Shown here: positions 6,111-64,000 of the stretch, piece by piece
Layout of the letters: the number at the start of each line of letters is the position of its first letter
Position numbering within the stretch: position 1 is the stretch's first letter
The notes under the pieces: model-generated
Database searches by the model: none
What the model was told of the DNA's origin: nothing
Seen by the model: only the letters and a program-made list of their open reading frames with translations
Origin: Octopus vulgaris
Lineage: Eukaryota
Direction of reading: 5' to 3'
NCBI GenBank assembly: GCA_951406725.2
Contig: OX597815.1
Span: 209,994,001-210,058,000, forward strand
Length of the DNA: 64,000 nucleotides
Position numbers and translations under genes: made by a program

Positions 6111-6244
6111 GTCATTCATATTGCTGCATAATCTACCAAACACATTTTTGCTGCTCACAATTTTTATAAAATAATATATGATAATAACTGAAAGTTCATG
6201 AATTTATATATTACATTCTTTCCAATCGAAGTGGACATTAATAC

Positions 6245-7096
6245 CTATTTCTTTACTACTCACAAAGGGCTAAACACAGATAGGACAAACAAGGACAGAC
6301 AAACGGATTAAGTCGATTTTACCGACCCAATGCGTAACTGGTTCATATTTAATCAACCCCAAAAGGATGAAAGGCAAAGTCGACTTTGGCGGAATTTGAA
6401 CTCAGAACGTAACAGCAGGCGAAATACCTATTTCTTTACTGCCCAAAAGAGACTACACACAGAGAGGACAAACAAGGACAGACGAACGGATTAAGTCGAT
6501 TATATCGACCCCAGTGCGTAACTGGTACTTAATCAATCGACCCCGAAAGAATGAAAGGCAAAGTCGACCTCGGCGGAATTTGAACTCAGAACGTAGCGTC
6601 AGGCGAAATACCCGTTTCTTTATTACCCACAAGGGGTTAAACATAGAGGGGACAAACAAGGACAGACATAGGTATTAAGTCGATTACATCGACCCCAGTG
6701 CGTAACTGGTGCTTAATTTATCGACCCCGAAAGGATGAAAGGTAAAGTCGACCTCGGCGGAATTCGAACTCAAAACGTAGCATTCAGACGAAATACCGCT
6801 AAGCATTTCTCCCGGCGCGCTAACGTTTCTGCCAGCTCGTCGCCTTCATGGACATTAATACCTATTTCTTTATTACCCACAAGGGGCTAAACACAGAGGG
6901 GACAAACAAGGACAGACATAGGTATTAAGTCGATTACATCGACCCCAGTGCGTAACTGGTGCTTAATTTATCGACCCCGAAAGGATGAAAGGTAAAGTCG
7001 ACCTCGGCGGAATTCGAACTCAAAACGTAGCATTCAGACGAAATACCGCTAAGCATTTCTCCCGGCGCGCTAACGTTTCTGCCAGCTCGTCGCCTT
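6245..7096 (-). mobile_element. SINE family A array: head + 3 bodies (6245-6846) plus a duplicated monomer (6862-7096)
   Basis: tRNA-like head with A-box (tggcagaaacgtt) and B-box (gagttcRaattcc). Units of ~184 bp start at 6245, 6428 and 6612. TSD tggacattaatac at 6232, 6849 and 7099. Confidence 0.92.
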
Positions 7097-7916
7097 CATG
7101 GACATTAATACCGCTGCCGTCACATTAACACCACAGTTTTGTTTTCTTTTGTTTCTTATTGAATTTATCTCTTTTTATTAGCTTTATACGTCTTACTTAG
7201 TGCAATGCAATATTTTGTAAATTGTAAACAAAGGTAAACATTTATAAAATAGCAAAACATAAAAACAATGTTTAAATAACTTTACGAAAAAATAGTTTTG
7301 TTATAAAACAGAGATATGAGGAGTAATTTGATTAGCTCTTATTGTTATCCGTTGTTATTTGCCTAACTTCTTTCAAATTATTGATGCTGTAATACTGTTT
7401 TCATCACGGCGAATAGCAGCGACAATTAGACTGGACTGGGAATGTGATAAAGAAACCGATCTTAAATTACAGGTAGAAAGGGACCGAGGAAAGATCCATA
7501 CGGAATAATTATGAATAAAAGGTAGGAAAACTGGCCTCAATGTTTTAAGTGAAATTGTAATACACAAAATATATAAAAGCAATATATTTCTAAAATTGTA
7601 ATATAATTATAATATTAAATATTTTACTACAATTTAGTGTTAAGACAAGGAGCTGTTCACTAAGTTGGTTGGCTATATTCACAATCCACTTACGATTATT
7701 GTATGTGAGATATCTTATGCTATCATATGAACGAGTTTATTTGTGAACCCTAAGGATAAGTAACTGCATACAGGTCAATCGAATATATATAGTCATACTT
7801 TACACTATATGTTGAATACTTTCACTTTACAAACAATGCGATATGAATTTATGTGTGTATGCGCATGTATATATGCATATACGAATGTTAGAGTCTGTAT
7901 TTGTATGTACATGTAT

Positions 7917-10621: not shown

Positions 10622-10987
10622 TGTGTGTATGTATATGCATGTATATCTGTGTATAAACATGCTCATCCATATGTATTTATATATATGTGTGTGTGTGTGT
10701 GTGTGTAATTTTATATGTATGTATATTTAGTGCTAACTTTCGTTGTTGCAGTTCTTATTACCAGCATTTTTTATTTAATTTTTTTATTTTGTATTTTTAT
10801 CTTTGTTTTTGCTGCTTACGATGCTAGATAATGGTTATGATGATAATGTGTAATGCGTGACTTAAAACTATTGTCATATCATAGTTAAGCCTTTAGCAGC
10901 CGACAAAATCAGTAAAAACTTGATGGCTTACAGAGATACAAAGAATGCAGTAGATCTGCGGTTGATATATAACTACGTAAACGCTAT

Positions 10988-11133
10988 ACGTACATACATA
11001 CATACATGCATACATACATACATACATACATACATACATACATACATACATACATACATGCATGCATGCATGCATGCATACATACATACATACATACATA
11101 CATACATGCATGCATACATACATACATAAATAC

Positions 11134-11164
<31 letters not shown>

Positions 11165-12160
11165 CATACATACATACATACATACGTACATACATACGTA
11201 CATACATACGTACATACATACATACATACATACATACATACATACATACATACATACATACATACATACATACATACATACATACATACATACATACATA
11301 CATACATACATACATACATACATACGTACATACATACATACATACATACATACATACATACATACGTACGTACATACATACGTACATACATACATACGTA
11401 CGTACGTACATACATACATACATACGTACGTACGTACGTACGTACATACATACATACATACATACATACGTACGTACGTACGTACGTACGTACATAGGTA
11501 CGTACGTACGTACATACATACATGCATGCATGCATACATACATACATACATACATACATGCATGCATACATACATACATACATACACACATACATACACA
11601 CATACATACATACATACATACATACATACATACATACATACATACATACATACATACATACATACATACATACATACATACATACATACATACATACATA
11701 CACACATGCATGCATACATGCATGCATACATACATACACACACACATGCATGCATACATGCATGCATACATACATACACACATGCATGCATACATGCATG
11801 CATACATACATACATACATACATACACACATACATACACACATACATACATACATACATACATACATACATACAATCACACATGCATACATACATGCATA
11901 CATACATACATGCATACATACATGCATACATACATGCATACATACATACATACATACATACATACACACATACATACATACATACATGCATACATGCATA
12001 CATACATACATACATACACACATACATACATACATACACACATACATGCATACATACATACATGCATACATACATACATACATACATACATACATGCATA
12101 CATACATACATGCATACATACATACATACATACATGCATACATACATACATACATACATG

Positions 12161-12256
<96 letters not shown>

Positions 12257-12598
12257 CATACATACATACATACATACATACATTCATGCATGCATACATA
12301 CATACATACATACATACATACATACATACATACATACATACATACATACATACATACATACATACATACATACAAGCATGCATGCATATATCTACATACA
12401 TATGTACACATATACATATATACATACATACATACATACATACATACCTACATACATACATACATACATACATACATACATACATACATGCCTACACACA
12501 TACATGCATGCATACATACATACATACATACATACATACATACATACATACAAGCATGCATGCATATATCTACATACATATGTACACATATACATACA

Positions 12599-12630
<32 letters not shown>

Positions 12631-12652
12631 CATACATACATACATATATACA

Positions 12653-12686
<34 letters not shown>

Positions 12687-12988
12687 CATACATACATACA
12701 TACATACATAAATACATACATACATACATACATACATACATACATACATACATACATACATACATACATACATACATACATACATACATGCATACATAAA
12801 TACATACATACATACATGCATACATAAATACATACATACATACATACATACATACACACACACATACATACATACATACATACATACATACATACATACA
12901 TGCATACATACATACATACATACATACATACAAGCATGCATGCATACATACATACATATATACATACATACATACACACATACATACA

Positions 12989-13022
<34 letters not shown>

Positions 13023-13274
13023 CATACATACATACATATATACATACATACATACATACATATATACATACATGCATCCATCCATACATACATACAAGCA
13101 TGCATGCATATATCTACATACATATGTACACATATACATACATACATACATACATACATACATACATACATACATACATACATACATACATACATACATA
13201 CATACATACATACATACATACATACATACATACATACATACATACATACATACATACATACATACATACATACA

Positions 13275-13308
<34 letters not shown>

Positions 13309-13654
13309 CATACATACATACATACATACATACATACATACATACATACATACATACATACATACATACATACATACATACATACATACATACATACATA
13401 CATACATACATACATACATAAATACATACATATATACATACATACATACATACATACATACATACATACATACACACATACATACATACATACATACATA
13501 CATACATACATACATACAAGCATGCATGCATACATACATACGTACATACATACATACATACATACGTACATACATACGTACATACATACATACATACATA
13601 CATAAATACATACATACATACATACATAAATACATACATACATACATGCATACA

Positions 13655-13690
<36 letters not shown>

Positions 13691-13760
13691 TATGCATGCA
13701 TCCATACATACATACATACATACATGCATATATCTACATACATATGTACACATATGTGTG
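10988..13760. repeat. ~2.8-kb (TACA)n microsatellite with variant domains
   Basis: Read directly; source of the HTYI/MYVC pseudo-ORFs. Confidence 0.98.
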
Positions 13761-48154: not shown

Positions 48155-49349
48155 AATATAATTTTATCGATTACGGTTGCAAGGTCTGAAACTTTTAGAG
48201 GAAGGGATAATCGAGTCACTTATTTTGTTGACCTTGAAAGAATGAAAGGCAAAGACGATTTTAGCAAGATTTGAACTCGCAACGTAAAGCCGGACAAAAT
48301 ACTCTTTTCTACTCTAGTCACAAAGCCCGAAAGTTTTGGGGAGGGGGTCAGTCGATTAGGCCAACCCCAGTAGGTAACTGGTACTTAATTTATTGAATAC
48401 GAAAGGATGAAAGGCAAAGTCGACCTCGGCGGAATTTGAACTCAGAACGTAAATACAGACAAACTACTGTTAAGCATTTCGCCCGGAATGTTAGCGTTTT
48501 TTATTTCTTTACTACCTACAATGGGGCTACACACAGAGAGGAAAAACAAGGACAGACAAACGGATTAAGTTGATAATATCGACGCCAGTGTGTAACTGGT
48601 ACTTATTTAATCGACCCGGAAAGGATGAAAGGCAAAGTCGACCTCGGCGGAATTTGAACTCAGAACGTAGCGGCAGACGAAATACTTATTTCTTTATTGC
48701 CCACAAGGGGCTAAACATAGAGGGGACAAACAAGGACAGACAAACGGATTAAGTTGATTAATATCGACGCCAGTGTGTAACTGGTACTTATTTAATCGAC
48801 CCGGAAAGGATGAAAGGCAAAGTCGACCTCGGCGGAATTTGAACTCAGAACGTAGCGGCAGACGAAATACTTATTTCTTTATTGCCCACAAGGGGCTAAA
48901 CATAGAGGGGACAAACAAGGACAGACAAACGGATTAAGTTGATTATATCGACGCCAGTGTGTAACTGGTACTTATTTAATCGACCCGGAAAGGATGAAAG
49001 GCAAAGTCGACCTCGGCGGAATTTGAACTCAGAACGTAGCGGCAGACGAAATACTTATTTCTTTATTGCCCACAAGGGGCTAAACATAGAGGGGACAAAC
49101 AAGGACAGACAAACGGATTAAGTCGATTACATCGACCCCAGTGCGTAACTGGTACTTTATTTATCGACCCCGAAAGGATAAAAGGCAAAGTCGACCTCGG
49201 CGGAATTTGAACTCAGAACGTAACGGCAGACGAAATACGGCTACGCATTTCGCCCGGCGTGCTAACGTTTCTGCCAGCTCGACACCTTAAAGCCAGACAA
49301 AATACTGCTAACCGTCTTTTCGGTGTGCTAGTCATTCTGCCAGTACGCT
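48155..49349 (-). mobile_element. Nested stack of family A SINEs including a head + 4-body array (48501-49288)
   Basis: Old copy split into 48155-48303 and 49289-49349 by an 18-bp TSD. Inside are an alternative-tail copy (48304-48500) and bodies starting at 48501, 48686, 48871 and 49055. Confidence 0.9.
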
Positions 49350-49815: not shown

Positions 49816-50154
49816 GGTAAAGACCCCCTTCGGTCATGAGTGACCATGGGTTTGCACCTAGAGAGTTACTCTCTGAGGCACAAGTCTGGGCAAGGTTGTT
49901 TTATGGAAGACCAGTAGTCGCCCATGCATACCGGCCTCCCCTCTCCACGCCACCAGTGTTATCCAAGGGAAAGACAAAGGTCGATACAGTTTGGCACCTG
50001 TGACGTCGCAACTCATTTCTACAGCTGAGTGAACTGGAGCAACGTGAAATAAAGTGTCTTGCTCAAGAACACAGCACGCAGCCCGGTCCGGGATTCGAGC
50101 TCACAACCTCACGATCGTAAGCTCGACGCTCTAACCACTGAGCCATGCGCCTTC
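49812..50154 (-). mobile_element. SINE family D (tRNA head, CORE-like centre), full length
   Basis: ggcgcatggctcagtggttagagcg...gagctcgaatccc head; tgtgttcttgagcaagacacttt CORE-like segment. Confidence 0.88.
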
Positions 50155-50164
50155 TAAAATCAAG

Positions 50165-50214
50165 TTCCCATGCCGGGAATCGAACCCGGGCCGCCTGGGT
50201 GAAAGCCAGGAATC

Positions 50215-50218
<4 letters not shown>
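50165..50218 (-). pseudogene. tRNA-Glu(TTC), 5'-truncated
   Basis: TTAGGATTCCTGGCTTTCACCCAGGCGGCCCGGGTTCGATTCCCGGCATGGGAA equals the 3' ~54 nt of metazoan tRNA-Glu; anticodon stem CCTGG/CCAGG, TTC at 50201-50203. The first ~18 nt are replaced by (TA)n. Confidence 0.9.
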
Positions 50219-59800: not shown

Positions 59801-61630
59801 GTATGAACATATAAATGCGCGAAAAAGTCATTTAAAGATCCTCTCGTCCATGTAGAACAAGAAACAAATGAGAAATTATTGTGACTTGAAGAAAAGGTTG
59901 TGATTCTTCGGTATTCAAATAACATTAATTATGCATCTTTGTTAACCTCTCCACCGAAATATATTACGGGGATGTAAAAAGTTGTGTCGTAGTTATACGC
60001 AATTAAACTACATTCTAATGTTTTTAGTGTTCTCATTTGATAACCTTTTTTTCTAGAAACATGTAATAAAACTTCTGATGAAGGTTTGTTTGAAATATTA
60101 ACGCAATTTTGTTTTTCTTTTAAAAAGTAAAAAGCATTCAAGCTGTTATCATCGATCCTGTTCCCAAGCATAATTGCATCTAGGACTATATCGTTTATTG
60201 TATCCTTCTTGTCAAGAAGTTATTTTATTAAGATGAGAGATATTTACTCATTAATTGTAGCTCGTTGAGGCTCCCTCGTGAAGTCGTCCATGCAGCTGAT
60301 TGAAACATTTGCAACATCATACTCGGTCGTGCTATTTCACGAGCAGTCTTTTATCTTTATCTTGTCAATTTACAAAGCCTAAAGTGTAACTACAGCTAGG
60401 AATGGACAGAAACCCTTTACGTTTATTGAATATTAGAAGCCATGTAAAAATATCTAATGACCTCAGAAGTTCAGAAAATTAGCTAAAGAAAGAAAAGCCT
60501 GGAGATAACAAATTATTGGCAGTAACATGATATCCGTGGCAACATGAGAGAAGGCCATGGAAGGAGAAGGGCGGAGAGGATAATGAGAAGGACAGCATCA
60601 TAAGGAAAACGACGATAGCCGCGATGATTACGATGATGGCAATAATTATAATGAGGATGAGGATGATGGTGGTAGTGATGATAAAAATATAAAGGAAACT
60701 ATGCTGATATCGATGGTCGGTATAAAGCTTTTGTTTTGCATGATTACAATATTTATGAGATAGATTCAATCATAGTATTTCAAATATTTATTTTATAGCA
60801 TATCGATGGAAGTAAGTCCGTGTGAAATATCTTAGGATTTATAGACAGGAATTAACCTGAGGACAGTTAGTTGAGCACATTACTACTTCTAACGCTTTTA
60901 TTATCTTTGGTATTAATAAACATATAGAACTGTGGACGAGTTCTTGTTAATGTAGTGCAGTACTATTTTCAGGTAATATATATGTGGAGCCTAGCATTAA
61001 CTGTTTCACTATAGCTAATTCATAAAACTTAGCTTTAAATTTATAAAAGTAGAAATTAACGGAAATCAAAATCAAAGTATTATACGTAAGAGAAACATAG
61101 CAAGACATAATAGTTTGATTTGAGAGCACGGAAGCAGAAAATTGTAGAAAAATGAAACAATATCAAGAGAATACGCTCGAGATAAACTTCGTTATTTGAA
61201 TGATTGACTTTTTGTAAAGCATGTGTCCTCGGATTCTCAATTCTAACTACGATTCCGTATAAAATTTTTAAAAAATGTATCTTGTTTGGACAATTGTATT
61301 AAGAATATCATATTCTGAAATAATGAGTGAAGTAAAAGAAAAGATTGCATTTAGAAGCATTTGGATAAAGTAGAAAAAAGAAAGTGATGAAAGTTTGTTC
61401 ACAAATGCTTGGTATTTGGTATTTAATGTCAAATTTTATTCATGAGACTAAATTTTCTTTATATTCCATATAACCATTTTATTTTTTCTTTAATTTCATA
61501 TTCCGAAAGAGATAGTTTGAAAGGTTTATTAATTTTAAAAATAACGATGTGTTTATTGCCGTAAGGAATTAGTTATGTACTAAGAAGACGTAAAAGACGA
61601 ATTCTGTTGTAATTCTGTTCTAATAATTGA

Positions 61631-62071
61631 AAGGCAGCGAGCTGGCAGAAACGTTAGCACGCAGGGTGAAATACTTAGCGTTATTTTGTGTGTTTACGTT
61701 CTGAGCTCAAATTCCGCCGAGGTCGACTTTACCTTTCATCCTTTCGCGGTCGATAAATTAAGTACCAGTAGCGTACTGGTGTCAATCTAATTGACTGGTC
61801 CCCACAAGAAATTTCTGGCCTTCTGCCTAGAGTAGAAAAGAATATTGATATAATTGAAAGCAACGACCTGGCAGAAAAGTTAGCACGCCGCGCAAAATGC
61901 TTAGATATATTTTGTCTGTCTTTACGTTCTGAGTTCAAATTCCGCCGAGGTCGACTTTGCCTTTTATACTTCCGGGGTCGGTAAATTAAGTACCATTTAC
62001 GTACTGGTGTTGATCTAATCGACTGGACCCCTCCCCCAAAATTTCGGGCCCTTGTGCCTAGAGTAGACAAG
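61631..62071 (+). mobile_element. Two tandem full copies of SINE family A (alternative-tail subfamily)
   Basis: Copies at 61631-61840 and 61858-62071, each followed by aatattgatataattga. Confidence 0.88.
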
Positions 62072-64000
62072 AATATTGATATAATTGATTGAATTAAACC
62101 TAATGGAGCCAAGAAAATTATTTCATACGAGAGTTGGAAAGCGAATCTTTTGAAGCAACCGGTAATCAACAGATCGCATTAAGTAACCTACAACCTAAAC
62201 ATTGTTGAAAAAACCTCATAAATAATGTTCAGTTTTCAATATCATAATATAAATCGCCTATTTCCTTCCTTCTTCAGACATGAAGATTGAGGACATTTCA
62301 AAAATTTATTTGTAGCATATCTACTAATTGCATACATTAGAAACTTGCAGTCCATCGATAATACCGCTATGATCACAACTGGCTGCAAGGAGTGCAAGGA
62401 TCTATCATTCCGTGTAAAATTGTTCCGCGCAATACTCGGTGTACACCAAATGTCAGCAAGATTAAATTATTGGTTGTATAATCGAAAGAATGTGCAATGT
62501 TTCGGCTCGATGGCCAGCTGATCTAGTTGGTTGGAAGATGCGATCCTTAGTCCTTATATCTACAGTAATTGTTACAATGCTAGAAGATCTGCAGCTGGTT
62601 GAGTTTGGATCACTCGACAATGAGCGACCAGAACAGCGTGTCGCATGTTATCTGTGCATCCCTTAATACAAAGACGTGATTGGTACGGTCACTGGTTACT
62701 TCAGCTGTTCTGATCATCTATGAGGCATAGCTGCAAATTATAAGGCAATGGTGCAAAGATGACAGCTATGAGCTGTAGGGCTGGCATTACGTACAACAGA
62801 TCACTGCAGGAACAGTGAGATCGCATAAGTTCTAGACGAGATAAATAATACTCTTAGACGAAAACAGTGCAAAAGTGGAAACTTAATCATTTTGTACATA
62901 TTTACTGTTATCCGGTCAATAGCATCGGACAAGTATATTATTTAGGGCAATCTTCGGTGTGGGTAACCACGTATGTTTATAACGTAAAATGACAAATGGG
63001 TAGCTAATCTACAAATCTCTCTGTGAAAGCTGTTCAGAACCGATTATAGTGGCATTCGTTTGTCAAAGATTTCACCAACTTTAGTTCGTGAGCCGATGTC
63101 CCAATGGAAAAGGTTTGATTTATTTAAAGTTATCAATGATGATTGTATACTTATCTCCATTGTATATTTATCTCCATTGATCCAAAATGTCTCGTTCCTA
63201 CGAGAACAGTTCAGGCAGGGTGTACAGTAGGTTTGTTCTCTAATGGTATCTGAATTTTATTCAAATTAGTCTAAGCAACATTCAAATACTAAGAAGGAAG
63301 AAACAACAATGGCCAAGAGATAGATATTCAGAAGTATCAAATGCGATACGTGAAAAATAGTAAGCAACGATTGCAAAATTAGATCTTTTGAAGTGGGTAA
63401 AATTACGGATAAAGATTTACGTTTTTACTGTTTAGATTTTGTGCTTGCGTTTATAAGCTATTGAACTAGTAATGTAGAATACCTACCGTAAATAACCGGA
63501 AGATTTGCACAGAAAACGTAATAAAAATTGATGTAAGAATGTAATTATTGTATATTTTCATGGGATGAGTTTTAACCTATTTTCTCGGTTTGGGAAATGA
63601 AATTCTATTTCTCTTTTCCTTTAATCATAGGTAAACACGATACTCCATGTGATACAAAATACTTTAAATCTACAGTTAATGAAAATATTTCGATTTAATT
63701 CCAAGGCTAGAATATAATATGTGAAAGAAAATATCTAAATAGTGAATGTCAACAAGTAATAACTTCTAGAAAGCTAAATAAATGTGGCTTATTTTTACAA
63801 ATAAAAAATAAACATGGAACATACAACATAAATGTAAATTATGAAATTGTTTATAAAATCATCCTAATATATCAAAATTGATAAATACCTGGCCCTAGAT
63901 AGATCTCAAAAGTTAAGCCATACTGCATATAGAGATAAAGCAAATTACAGCTCTATGCAACAATGATTTACTTACAGTTGCTCGTAACTTTATAAATACT

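What the first reader, a model, noticed from the sequence alone, without database searches (positions are those of the whole stretch)
48155..49349. A SINE nested in an older copy of itself at the site where its tandem arrays join: possible self-targeting retroposon
Seen: an old family A copy is split by a ~1-kb insert with a 17/18 TSD (48286-48303, 49289-49306). On the sense strand the TSD reads aGTATTTTGTC.GGCTTT, the same internal GTATTT site where every array junction in the window falls. Inside the insert, a second copy is cut in its head (48500) by a younger head + 4-body array, with no duplicated head. Inference: the family inserts into its own copies. When the new cDNA's 5' end anneals to the homologous resident sequence, a seamless head+(body)n array results; otherwise a nested copy with a TSD results. 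Caveat: bodies 1-3 share private variants (gacgccagtgtg, gacccggaaagg), so local DNA duplication also contributed.
Basis: partly seen in the sequence, partly recalled or inferred. Interest (0 to 1): 0.75.

Follow-up and report, generated by a model that had tools for sequence, protein, structure and literature searches.

The report
SINE that inserts into itself
A very common short jumping element in this octopus-like genome is joined to other copies of itself at one exact spot tens of thousands of times, likely because it borrows the site-specific enzyme of a long jumping element that lands on the same spot; the neat nested copy flagged here is real but is likely a chance hit by an older subfamily.

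Summary
The structure is real: a 985-bp insert with a 17/18 target-site duplication (TSD) splits an old SINE copy at its GTATTT site (consensus position 51). Self-targeting holds genome-wide. There are 35,386 exact young-tail-to-position-51 junctions, plus 3,288 at a second site, position 18. A LINE with endonuclease and reverse transcriptase shares the young tail (28 of the last 31 letters) and lands at position 51 in 29 of 30 copies. Dimer units are unrelated, the downstream unit is older, and unhit copies are depleted of intact targets. Two corrections. First, the TSD here is ended by an older-tailed copy, and that tail meets position 51 only 4 times genome-wide, so this nest is probably incidental. 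Second, the doubled head survives in about 1 of 500 junctions at position 51 and 1 of 80 at position 18, but in most events at a control site, so homology alone does not explain head loss; it likely happens during targeted insertion. The middle units here are local duplicates. The scan reported this LINE/SINE system before on other DNA of this genome. Closest known: Tx1-Mar/SINEU and melanogaster-type R1.

The parts
49307..49348 (-). Head of the old resident copy (O)
   Evidence: aligns to consensus positions ~8-50, about 22% diverged
49289..49306 (-). 5' TSD copy, consensus positions 51-68 of O
49238..49288 (-). Single head of the insert; carries CCGTAT instead of the target GGTAT. Its first 17 letters may belong to copy M or to the newcomer
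   Evidence: 4 mismatches in 51
49054..49237 (-). Body u1, young A2 tail
   Evidence: 9 differences from consensus; 20 from u4
48870..49053 (-). Body u2: front of u4 plus back of u1 (local duplicate)
   Evidence: variable columns switch between 116 and 144
48685..48869 (-). Body u3: same as u2 plus one inserted letter
   Evidence: 1 difference in 185
48501..48684 (-). Body u4, A2 tail, joined headless to position 18 of copy M
   Evidence: 17 differences from consensus; junction class counted
48304..48500 (-). Copy M, A1y subfamily, positions 18/19 to end; its own position-51 site is mutated; its tail abuts the 3' TSD
   Evidence: 16 differences in 160 from the A1y consensus
48286..48303 (-). 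3' TSD copy
48155..48285 (-). Body and decayed A1-type tail of the old resident O
   Evidence: 26% diverged, with a 25-letter deletion

Best explanation
The young subfamily (A2) of this SINE likely borrows the site-specific enzyme of a Tx1-like LINE whose target lies in the SINE's own head, so new copies likely insert into older copies, and the new head likely replaces rather than doubles the old one during insertion, leaving head+(body)n arrays. Shown: fixed junctions at positions 51 and 18, a LINE with the same tail at position 51, an older downstream unit, unrelated units in dimers, depletion of intact targets in unhit copies, and rare doubled heads. Inferred: the first nick at GGTATTT primes reverse transcription; the cDNA head pairs with the resident head; the top strand is cut upstream of the nick or overwritten, as proposed for melanogaster-type R1; a downstream cut gives the rare nested copy with a TSD. 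Inferred history here: O inserted; the A1y copy M inserted into O at a loose RTAT-type site, making the TSD; an A2 copy (u4) hit M at position 18 because M's position 51 was mutated; u1 hit u4 at 51; unequal exchange or slippage then added u2 and u3.
For: 35,386 exact junctions at 51, reversed-pattern control 0; 3,288 at 18. Unselected DNA: of 111 A2 ends, 39 land at 51, 7 at 38-63, 5 at 18, 1 antisense, 59 outside the family. LINE fragments match endonuclease and RT profiles. 28 of 30 copies found with a LINE-only query land at 51, a 29th by eye, with the target duplicated wherever the 5' junction into a SINE was in view (L246, L272, L274, L287, L294). The commonest LINE end and the u1-u3 tail agree at 28 of 31 letters. 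A2-tailed nests with a TSD exist at 51 (66 matches; 21 nests parsed). Downstream unit older: 7.0 vs 5.6% (58 dimers, p=0.007) and 7.9 vs 5.4% (29 A2>A1y pairs, p=0.010). 0 of 57 A2 dimers have units under 3% apart; median 9.5%, against 9.8% between arrays. 51 last A1 units share at most 2 rare changes. 9 of 11 untruncated A1y copies follow another copy's tail, against 5 of 45 A1o copies, whose commonest site reads GGCAT. Target intact in only 9 of 24 unhit A1y copies and 26 of 65 headed A2 copies, against 65-70% for control 5-mers. No hidden TSD in headless dimers: 3 of 24 vs 7 of 14 shared variants, and 5 of 25 vs 6 of 6 motif matches. Doubled heads: 66 at 51, 40 at 18, 15 at a control site with at most 18 plausible junctions.
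Against: Outer TSD quality does not fall with the age of the last unit (rho 0.03, n=59), and some arrays with a diverged last unit have near-perfect TSDs (L312, 16 of 17), which copying of multimer RNA predicts. No locus was seen both before and after a hit; contigs break inside the SINE. Head origin over positions 1-50 cannot be assigned, because A1y and A2 heads have the same consensus. Over half of A2 ends (59 of 111) lie outside the family, so targeting is loose or other partners also act; a sister LINE with a related tail targets TATC repeats. The pattern counts differ in stringency, and the control loci were not inspected. Part of the target depletion in A2 is a CCGTAT variant that may simply be a subfamily.
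Confidence: 0.68

Rival explanations
1. Junctions are mostly inherited. A few insertions into residents made loci whose transcript runs from the new head through the new body into the old body, and such multimer RNAs were copied whole to empty sites.
For: No run of four T in either consensus, so read-through is possible. Young head region, older last unit and no hidden TSD all follow. Outer TSDs do not age with the last unit. It would explain why headless junctions exceed nests only at hot spots.
Against: 51 last units show no shared source, so thousands of sources would be needed. Unhit copies are depleted of intact targets. Outer TSDs are found less often around arrays (20 of 59) than around solo A2 (22 of 41; p=0.064). 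It still needs targeted insertion to found the sources.
Confidence: 0.18
2. Every hit first makes a nest with a TSD; the doubled head is deleted later by recombination between the two heads.
For: Doubled heads do rearrange: several nests carry 3 or more heads in tandem. A random crossover predicts about 20% retention of resident letters at 52-66, as seen. Nests are enriched for diverged residents.
Against: Longer duplications (about 105-120 bp) at the control site mostly persist, while duplications of about 25-35 bp at position 18 would have to collapse about 99% of the time.
Confidence: 0.07
3. Reverse transcriptase jumps from position 51 of one SINE RNA to the 3' end of another, building the array in one event at an empty site.
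For: It gives unrelated units and no hidden TSD. The tail end can pair with positions 53-58 in a fold of the junction.
Against: It does not explain why a LINE enters DNA at the same letter with a TSD, the one-way order (A2 before A1), the age gradient or the target depletion.
Confidence: 0.05
4. Arrays are purely local tandem duplications or satellite seeds.
For: True for the middle units here; 7 of 9 arrays of four or more units have a neighbouring pair at most 3.5% apart.
Against: 0 of 57 dimers have near-identical units; many arrays end in another subfamily.
Confidence: 0.02

Closest known systems
Tx1-Mar LINEs and SINEU-3 of crocodilians (PMC4494074; passages read)
   Same: A Tx1 LINE and its passenger SINE share a target inside another repeat; tandem SINEU-3 copies are read as sequential insertions.
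   Different: There the target is a Mariner element and tandem copies sandwich a TSD. Here the target is the SINE's own head and almost all junctions lack the doubled head and TSD.
Melanogaster-type R1 in 28S rDNA (PMC2718515; passages read)
   Same: Two outcomes at one site: an upstream top-strand cut lets cDNA made from target-homologous RNA anneal precisely; a downstream cut gives a TSD. Tandem arrays form by repeated insertion.
   Different: R1 is autonomous, targets rDNA, and its homology is co-transcribed rRNA. Here the homology is the SINE's own head. The upstream cut is inferred here, not shown.
SINE-derived satellites (sSat) of squamates (PMC10702118; parts 1-4 of 5 read)
   Same: Tandem units shorter than the SINE with a longer terminal unit; some units cover body and LINE-derived region.
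   Different: sSats run to hundreds of homogenised units and tend to be subtelomeric; the paper invokes unequal recombination and mentions insertion at the same locus, with no site-specific LINE in the parts read. Here most arrays are dimers of unrelated units spread through the genome.
Tandem Dip/B1 multimers of jerboa and dimeric SINEs such as Alu (as cited in PMC10702118; originals not read)
   Same: A large share of copies sits in multimers.
   Different: Those are full-length units or fixed dimers, not head+(body)n at a fixed internal site.
Octopus SINEs OK, OR1, OR2 (Ohshima and Okada 1994; not held; the name OK is recalled)
   Same: tRNA-type SINEs of octopus; this family may be one of them.

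Membership tests
SINE | short, high-copy, interspersed | tested here: met
   about 234-letter consensus from 105 copies; 111 A2 and 84 A1 ends in 1.31 Mb
SINE | target-site duplications | tested here: met
   22 of 41 solo A2 copies vs 4 of 82 mismatched controls; median length about 14
SINE | 3' end shared with a partner LINE | tested here: met
   A2: 36 of the last 48 aligned columns vs L246; 28 of 31 letters vs the common LINE end. A1: no match, partner not found
SINE | tRNA-derived head with A and B boxes | tested here: inconclusive
   A-box-like and B-box-like words by eye against recalled box consensus; ARAGORN 0 genes, Rfam no tRNA match
SINE | transcription by RNA polymerase III | not testable with these tools
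   no RNA run laid; no TTTT in either consensus
Tx1-clade LINE (partner) | ORF2 with APE endonuclease, RT and C-terminal zinc domain | tested here: met
   sister family L086: Exo_endo_phos, RVT_1, zf-RVT. Site-51 copy L246 is broken: RVT_1 passes, Exo_endo_phos just below cut-off; 44-61% identity to L086 along ORF2
Tx1-clade LINE (partner) | sequence-specific insertion with TSD | tested here: met
   28 of 30 at position 51 by script, 29 by eye
Tx1-clade LINE (partner) | RT groups with named Tx1 elements in a tree | not tested
   no named references; homologue search gave unnamed or hypothetical proteins. The label Tx1 comes from domain order and earlier notes
Tx1-clade LINE (partner) | ORF1 with zinc knuckles | tested here: inconclusive
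   one 108-aa ORF1 fragment of a broken copy matched nothing
sSat (SINE-derived satellite) | at least four middle units, homogenised | tested here: not met
   57 of 79 A2 arrays are dimers, largest 6 units; dimer units 9.5% apart
sSat (SINE-derived satellite) | subtelomeric location | tested here: inconclusive
   junctions occur throughout contigs; enrichment not measured
Retrozyme (ribozyme-bearing tandem retroelement) | hammerhead or other ribozyme in the unit | tested here: not met
   no Rfam match at gathering score or at E up to 5, apart from one chance hit in the flank
MetaSINE superfamily | central Meta domain | tested here: inconclusive
   resemblance recalled only; two core words not found in 2 supplements, a third file not searchable

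The most novel reading that the evidence does not exclude
Probability: 0.35. Interest if true: 0.72.

Novelty: new variant of a known kind. Interest (0 to 1): 0.5.

Why it matters
It links two repeat classes by a defined route: a site-specific LINE enzyme turns a dispersed SINE into tens of thousands of short tandem arrays, which unequal exchange then extends. That offers a testable origin for SINE-derived satellites. It is also a natural, very large sample of how 5' junctions of target-primed insertions are resolved when the cDNA end matches the target, a step otherwise studied in R1 and R2 at rDNA. For annotation, copy counts and ages of this family are distorted if array units are treated as single events. 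The flagged locus itself adds little beyond a readable layered history.

Tried and rejected
Head-origin test: heads of A2>A1 arrays looked young (position 39 G in 11 of 11). Withdrawn, because the residents are A1y, whose head consensus equals that of A2. Outer-TSD age test: no trend, inconclusive; low-complexity flanks, short matches and arrays preceded by another unit were dropped before the counts. The motif typing was off by one position and was redone; the other outputs stand. A guessed LINE-tail pattern found 1 match. The first LINE found (L086) is a sister family: my pattern found the end in 12 of 30 loci, 11 running into TATC repeats and 1 into TCTG repeats. Laying reads could not show unit number or empty alleles: contigs break inside the repeat and raw-read depth was near zero. 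Ribozyme or rolling-circle origin: no Rfam support. The unselected sample could not be enlarged beyond 131 stretches, so several tests have n under 60. Literature: nine answered searches listed no paper describing this system; (SINE, self-insertion, own copies, site-specific endonuclease, LINE partner; 3 of 5 terms) gave 0 papers. An octopus repeat annotation (PMC13282606, parts 1-2 of 3 read) lists L1-Tx1 and SINE families and does not mention such arrays in those parts; its supplement was not opened. PMC4758252 and PMC4824008: passages only. Subscription journals and Repbase entries are not searchable here and may describe it.

Full report
Observation. The element reads on the minus strand. 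From its 5' end the locus is: head of an old copy (49348-49307), an 18-letter repeat (49306-49289), one head, four 184-bp bodies, a second copy that begins at consensus position 18-19 (48500-48304), the second copy of the repeat (48303-48286) and the rest of the old copy. The repeats match at 17 of 18 and cover positions 51-68 of the old copy, which is colinear and 26% diverged once the insert is removed. Contigs of another individual and of two other species labels cross from the flank into the inserted head. The description is accurate.

The family. I sampled 131 unselected 10-kb stretches (1.31 Mb) and about 180 loci picked by pattern or similarity. The family has one head and core and two tails: A2 (young) and A1, which splits into an old form (A1o) and a younger form (A1y) that differ at six positions. 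Solo A2 copies have TSDs in 22 of 41 cases, against 4 of 82 controls. Ordinary A2 targets are biased: of 52 ends outside the family, 43 have A at the fourth position and 15 begin GGTA, against a background of 0.26%. That the genome is an octopus is inferred from the repeat content and earlier notes; a tRNA origin of the head was not confirmed by ARAGORN or Rfam.

Landing points. The exact junction of the A2 tail to position 51 occurs 35,386 times (control 0). The unselected sample has 13 such matches where that count predicts 17. A second junction, to position 18, occurs 3,288 times; the cut at 48500 belongs to this class. Of 111 A2 ends in unselected DNA, 39 land at 51, 7 at 38-63 (probably 51 with small indels), 5 at 18, 1 antisense and 59 outside the family. 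Of 84 A1 ends, 75 are outside the family and 1 lands near 51.

The enzyme. Earlier notes of this scan pointed to a Tx1-like LINE, which I tested. L246 holds a broken LINE with endonuclease and RT matches, inserted at position 51 with the target duplicated. A search with its last 302 letters, which hold no SINE target sequence, gave 40 matches; of the 30 fetched, 28 land at 51 by script, one more by eye, and one elsewhere. The commonest LINE end agrees with the tail of units u1-u3 at 28 of 31 letters; the A1 tail shows no such match. A sister LINE with a related tail targets TATC repeats. The clade name rests on domain order, not on a tree.

Are residents hit in DNA? Five results say yes. Dimer units are as different as units of different arrays (median 9.5 vs 9.8%; 0 of 57 under 3%). 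The downstream unit is older (7.0 vs 5.6%, n=58, p=0.007; 7.9 vs 5.4%, n=29, p=0.010; both sets mix unselected and selected loci). The 51 last A1 units share at most two rare changes. Nine of 11 untruncated A1y copies follow another copy's tail, against 5 of 45 A1o copies, whose commonest site reads GGCAT. Unhit copies have lost the target more often than control words (9 of 24 A1y, p=0.005; 26 of 65 headed A2). One test did not agree: outer TSD quality is unrelated to the age of the last unit (rho 0.03, n=59), which leaves room for multimer RNAs copied whole.

Why no second head? Nests with a doubled head number 66 at position 51 and 40 at 18, against 35,386 and 3,288 junctions; 0 of 23 headed arrays in unselected DNA have a head remnant upstream. 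At a control window (positions about 89-105) there are 15 doubled heads and 40 tail junctions, of which I read 22 as position-51 or -18 junctions with deletions, leaving at most 18. So off-target hits in the same orientation mostly keep the doubled head, although their homology is longer. This argues against later collapse as the main cause, and against homology alone. The patterns differ in stringency (23-24 vs 32-33 letters), the 5' patterns accept any tail, and the control loci were not inspected. Headless dimers hide no TSD: 3 of 24 resident variants at 52-63 recur in the first unit, against 7 of 14 in nests (p=0.02), and the A1-type motif at 62-69 recurs in 5 of 25 against 6 of 6 (p=0.0006). 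The join therefore usually lies upstream of 52, or the resident strand is overwritten. Resident heads that survive in nests are more diverged than heads of headless arrays (11.2 vs 7.4%, p=0.011; last bodies 8.1 vs 6.9%, p=0.057), as a homology-dependent join predicts. Melanogaster-type R1 offers a precedent: an upstream top-strand cut permits precise annealing, a downstream cut gives a TSD (PMC2718515, passages). Applying that here is inference.

This locus. The TSD is closed by copy M, an A1y element. The A1y tail meets position 51 four times genome-wide, once here. So the nest is most likely an ordinary A1y insertion at a site fitting its loose preference, later overbuilt by A2; that the whole insert arrived as one RNA primed at M's tail is not excluded. 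M's own position 51 is mutated and it was hit at 18. Units u1 and u4 differ at 20 of 185 columns; u2 and u3 match u4 up to column 116 and u1 from column 144, and differ from each other by one letter. That is the signature of unequal exchange or slippage in a u1-u4 dimer. Seven of 9 arrays of four or more units show such near-identical neighbours.

Relation to known systems. It works like Tx1-Mar/SINEU of crocodilians (shared target, sequential insertion; PMC4494074, passages), but the target is the SINE's own head and the junctions are headless. It resembles squamate sSats in layout but fails their array length and homogeneity (PMC10702118, parts 1-4 of 5). Nine paper searches listed no description of this system, but the library lacks subscription journals, and the 1994 octopus SINE paper was not held. 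This scan has reported the LINE/SINE system at least eight times on other DNA of this genome. New here: the control-site and position-18 ratios that place head loss at insertion, the target-depletion evidence, and the finding that the flagged nest is not part of the targeted pathway.

Verdict. Observation confirmed; interpretation partly supported; new variant of a known kind; interest 0.5.

Noticed in passing
A2 heads genome-wide; window 49238-49240: A CCGTAT variant replaces the target GGTAT in 42 of 188 headed A2 units, in 18 of 49 solo copies and 16 of 86 first units. It may be a subfamily immune to further hits.
   Followed up: partly
L086 (G000:C18:20.00 Mb) and L216-L245: A very young LINE family (intact 1,146-1,149-aa ORF2, all 150 scored copies 99-100% identical over the query) with a tail related to A2 inserts into TATC microsatellites.
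   Followed up: partly
window 6240-7100: Array in which a whole head+body+TSD unit of 250 bp is duplicated at 98% identity ahead of a three-body array; likely duplication through the TSD.
   Followed up: partly
window 61630-62077: Two different full-length A1y copies in tandem, separated by a TSD-like repeat; both have lost the position-51 target.
   Followed up: partly
G000:C14:84691114-84691416, C1:163187374-163187490 and others: Doubled heads have themselves expanded into 3-5 tandem repeats of 23-76 bp.
   Followed up: no
A2 consensus positions 33-65: The head is predicted to fold into a long hairpin whose 3' arm begins next to the target site, and the tail end is complementary to positions 53-58 (no shuffle control).
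   Followed up: no
L208, L167, L180: A2 copies inserted with a TSD into other copies at further sites: antisense at a GGTAC word (L208), near position 70 (L167) and at 18 (L180).
   Followed up: no
window 49819-50155 and 50158-50215: Another SINE-like element with a tRNA-like end, followed by a tRNA-like fragment; ARAGORN called no gene.
   Followed up: no
window 10986-13744: A 2.76-kb (ATAC)n microsatellite, about 690 copies.
   Followed up: no
L008:2631-6886: Two long open frames (429 and 1,038 aa) that look like a retrotransposon gag-pol pair; not examined.
   Followed up: no
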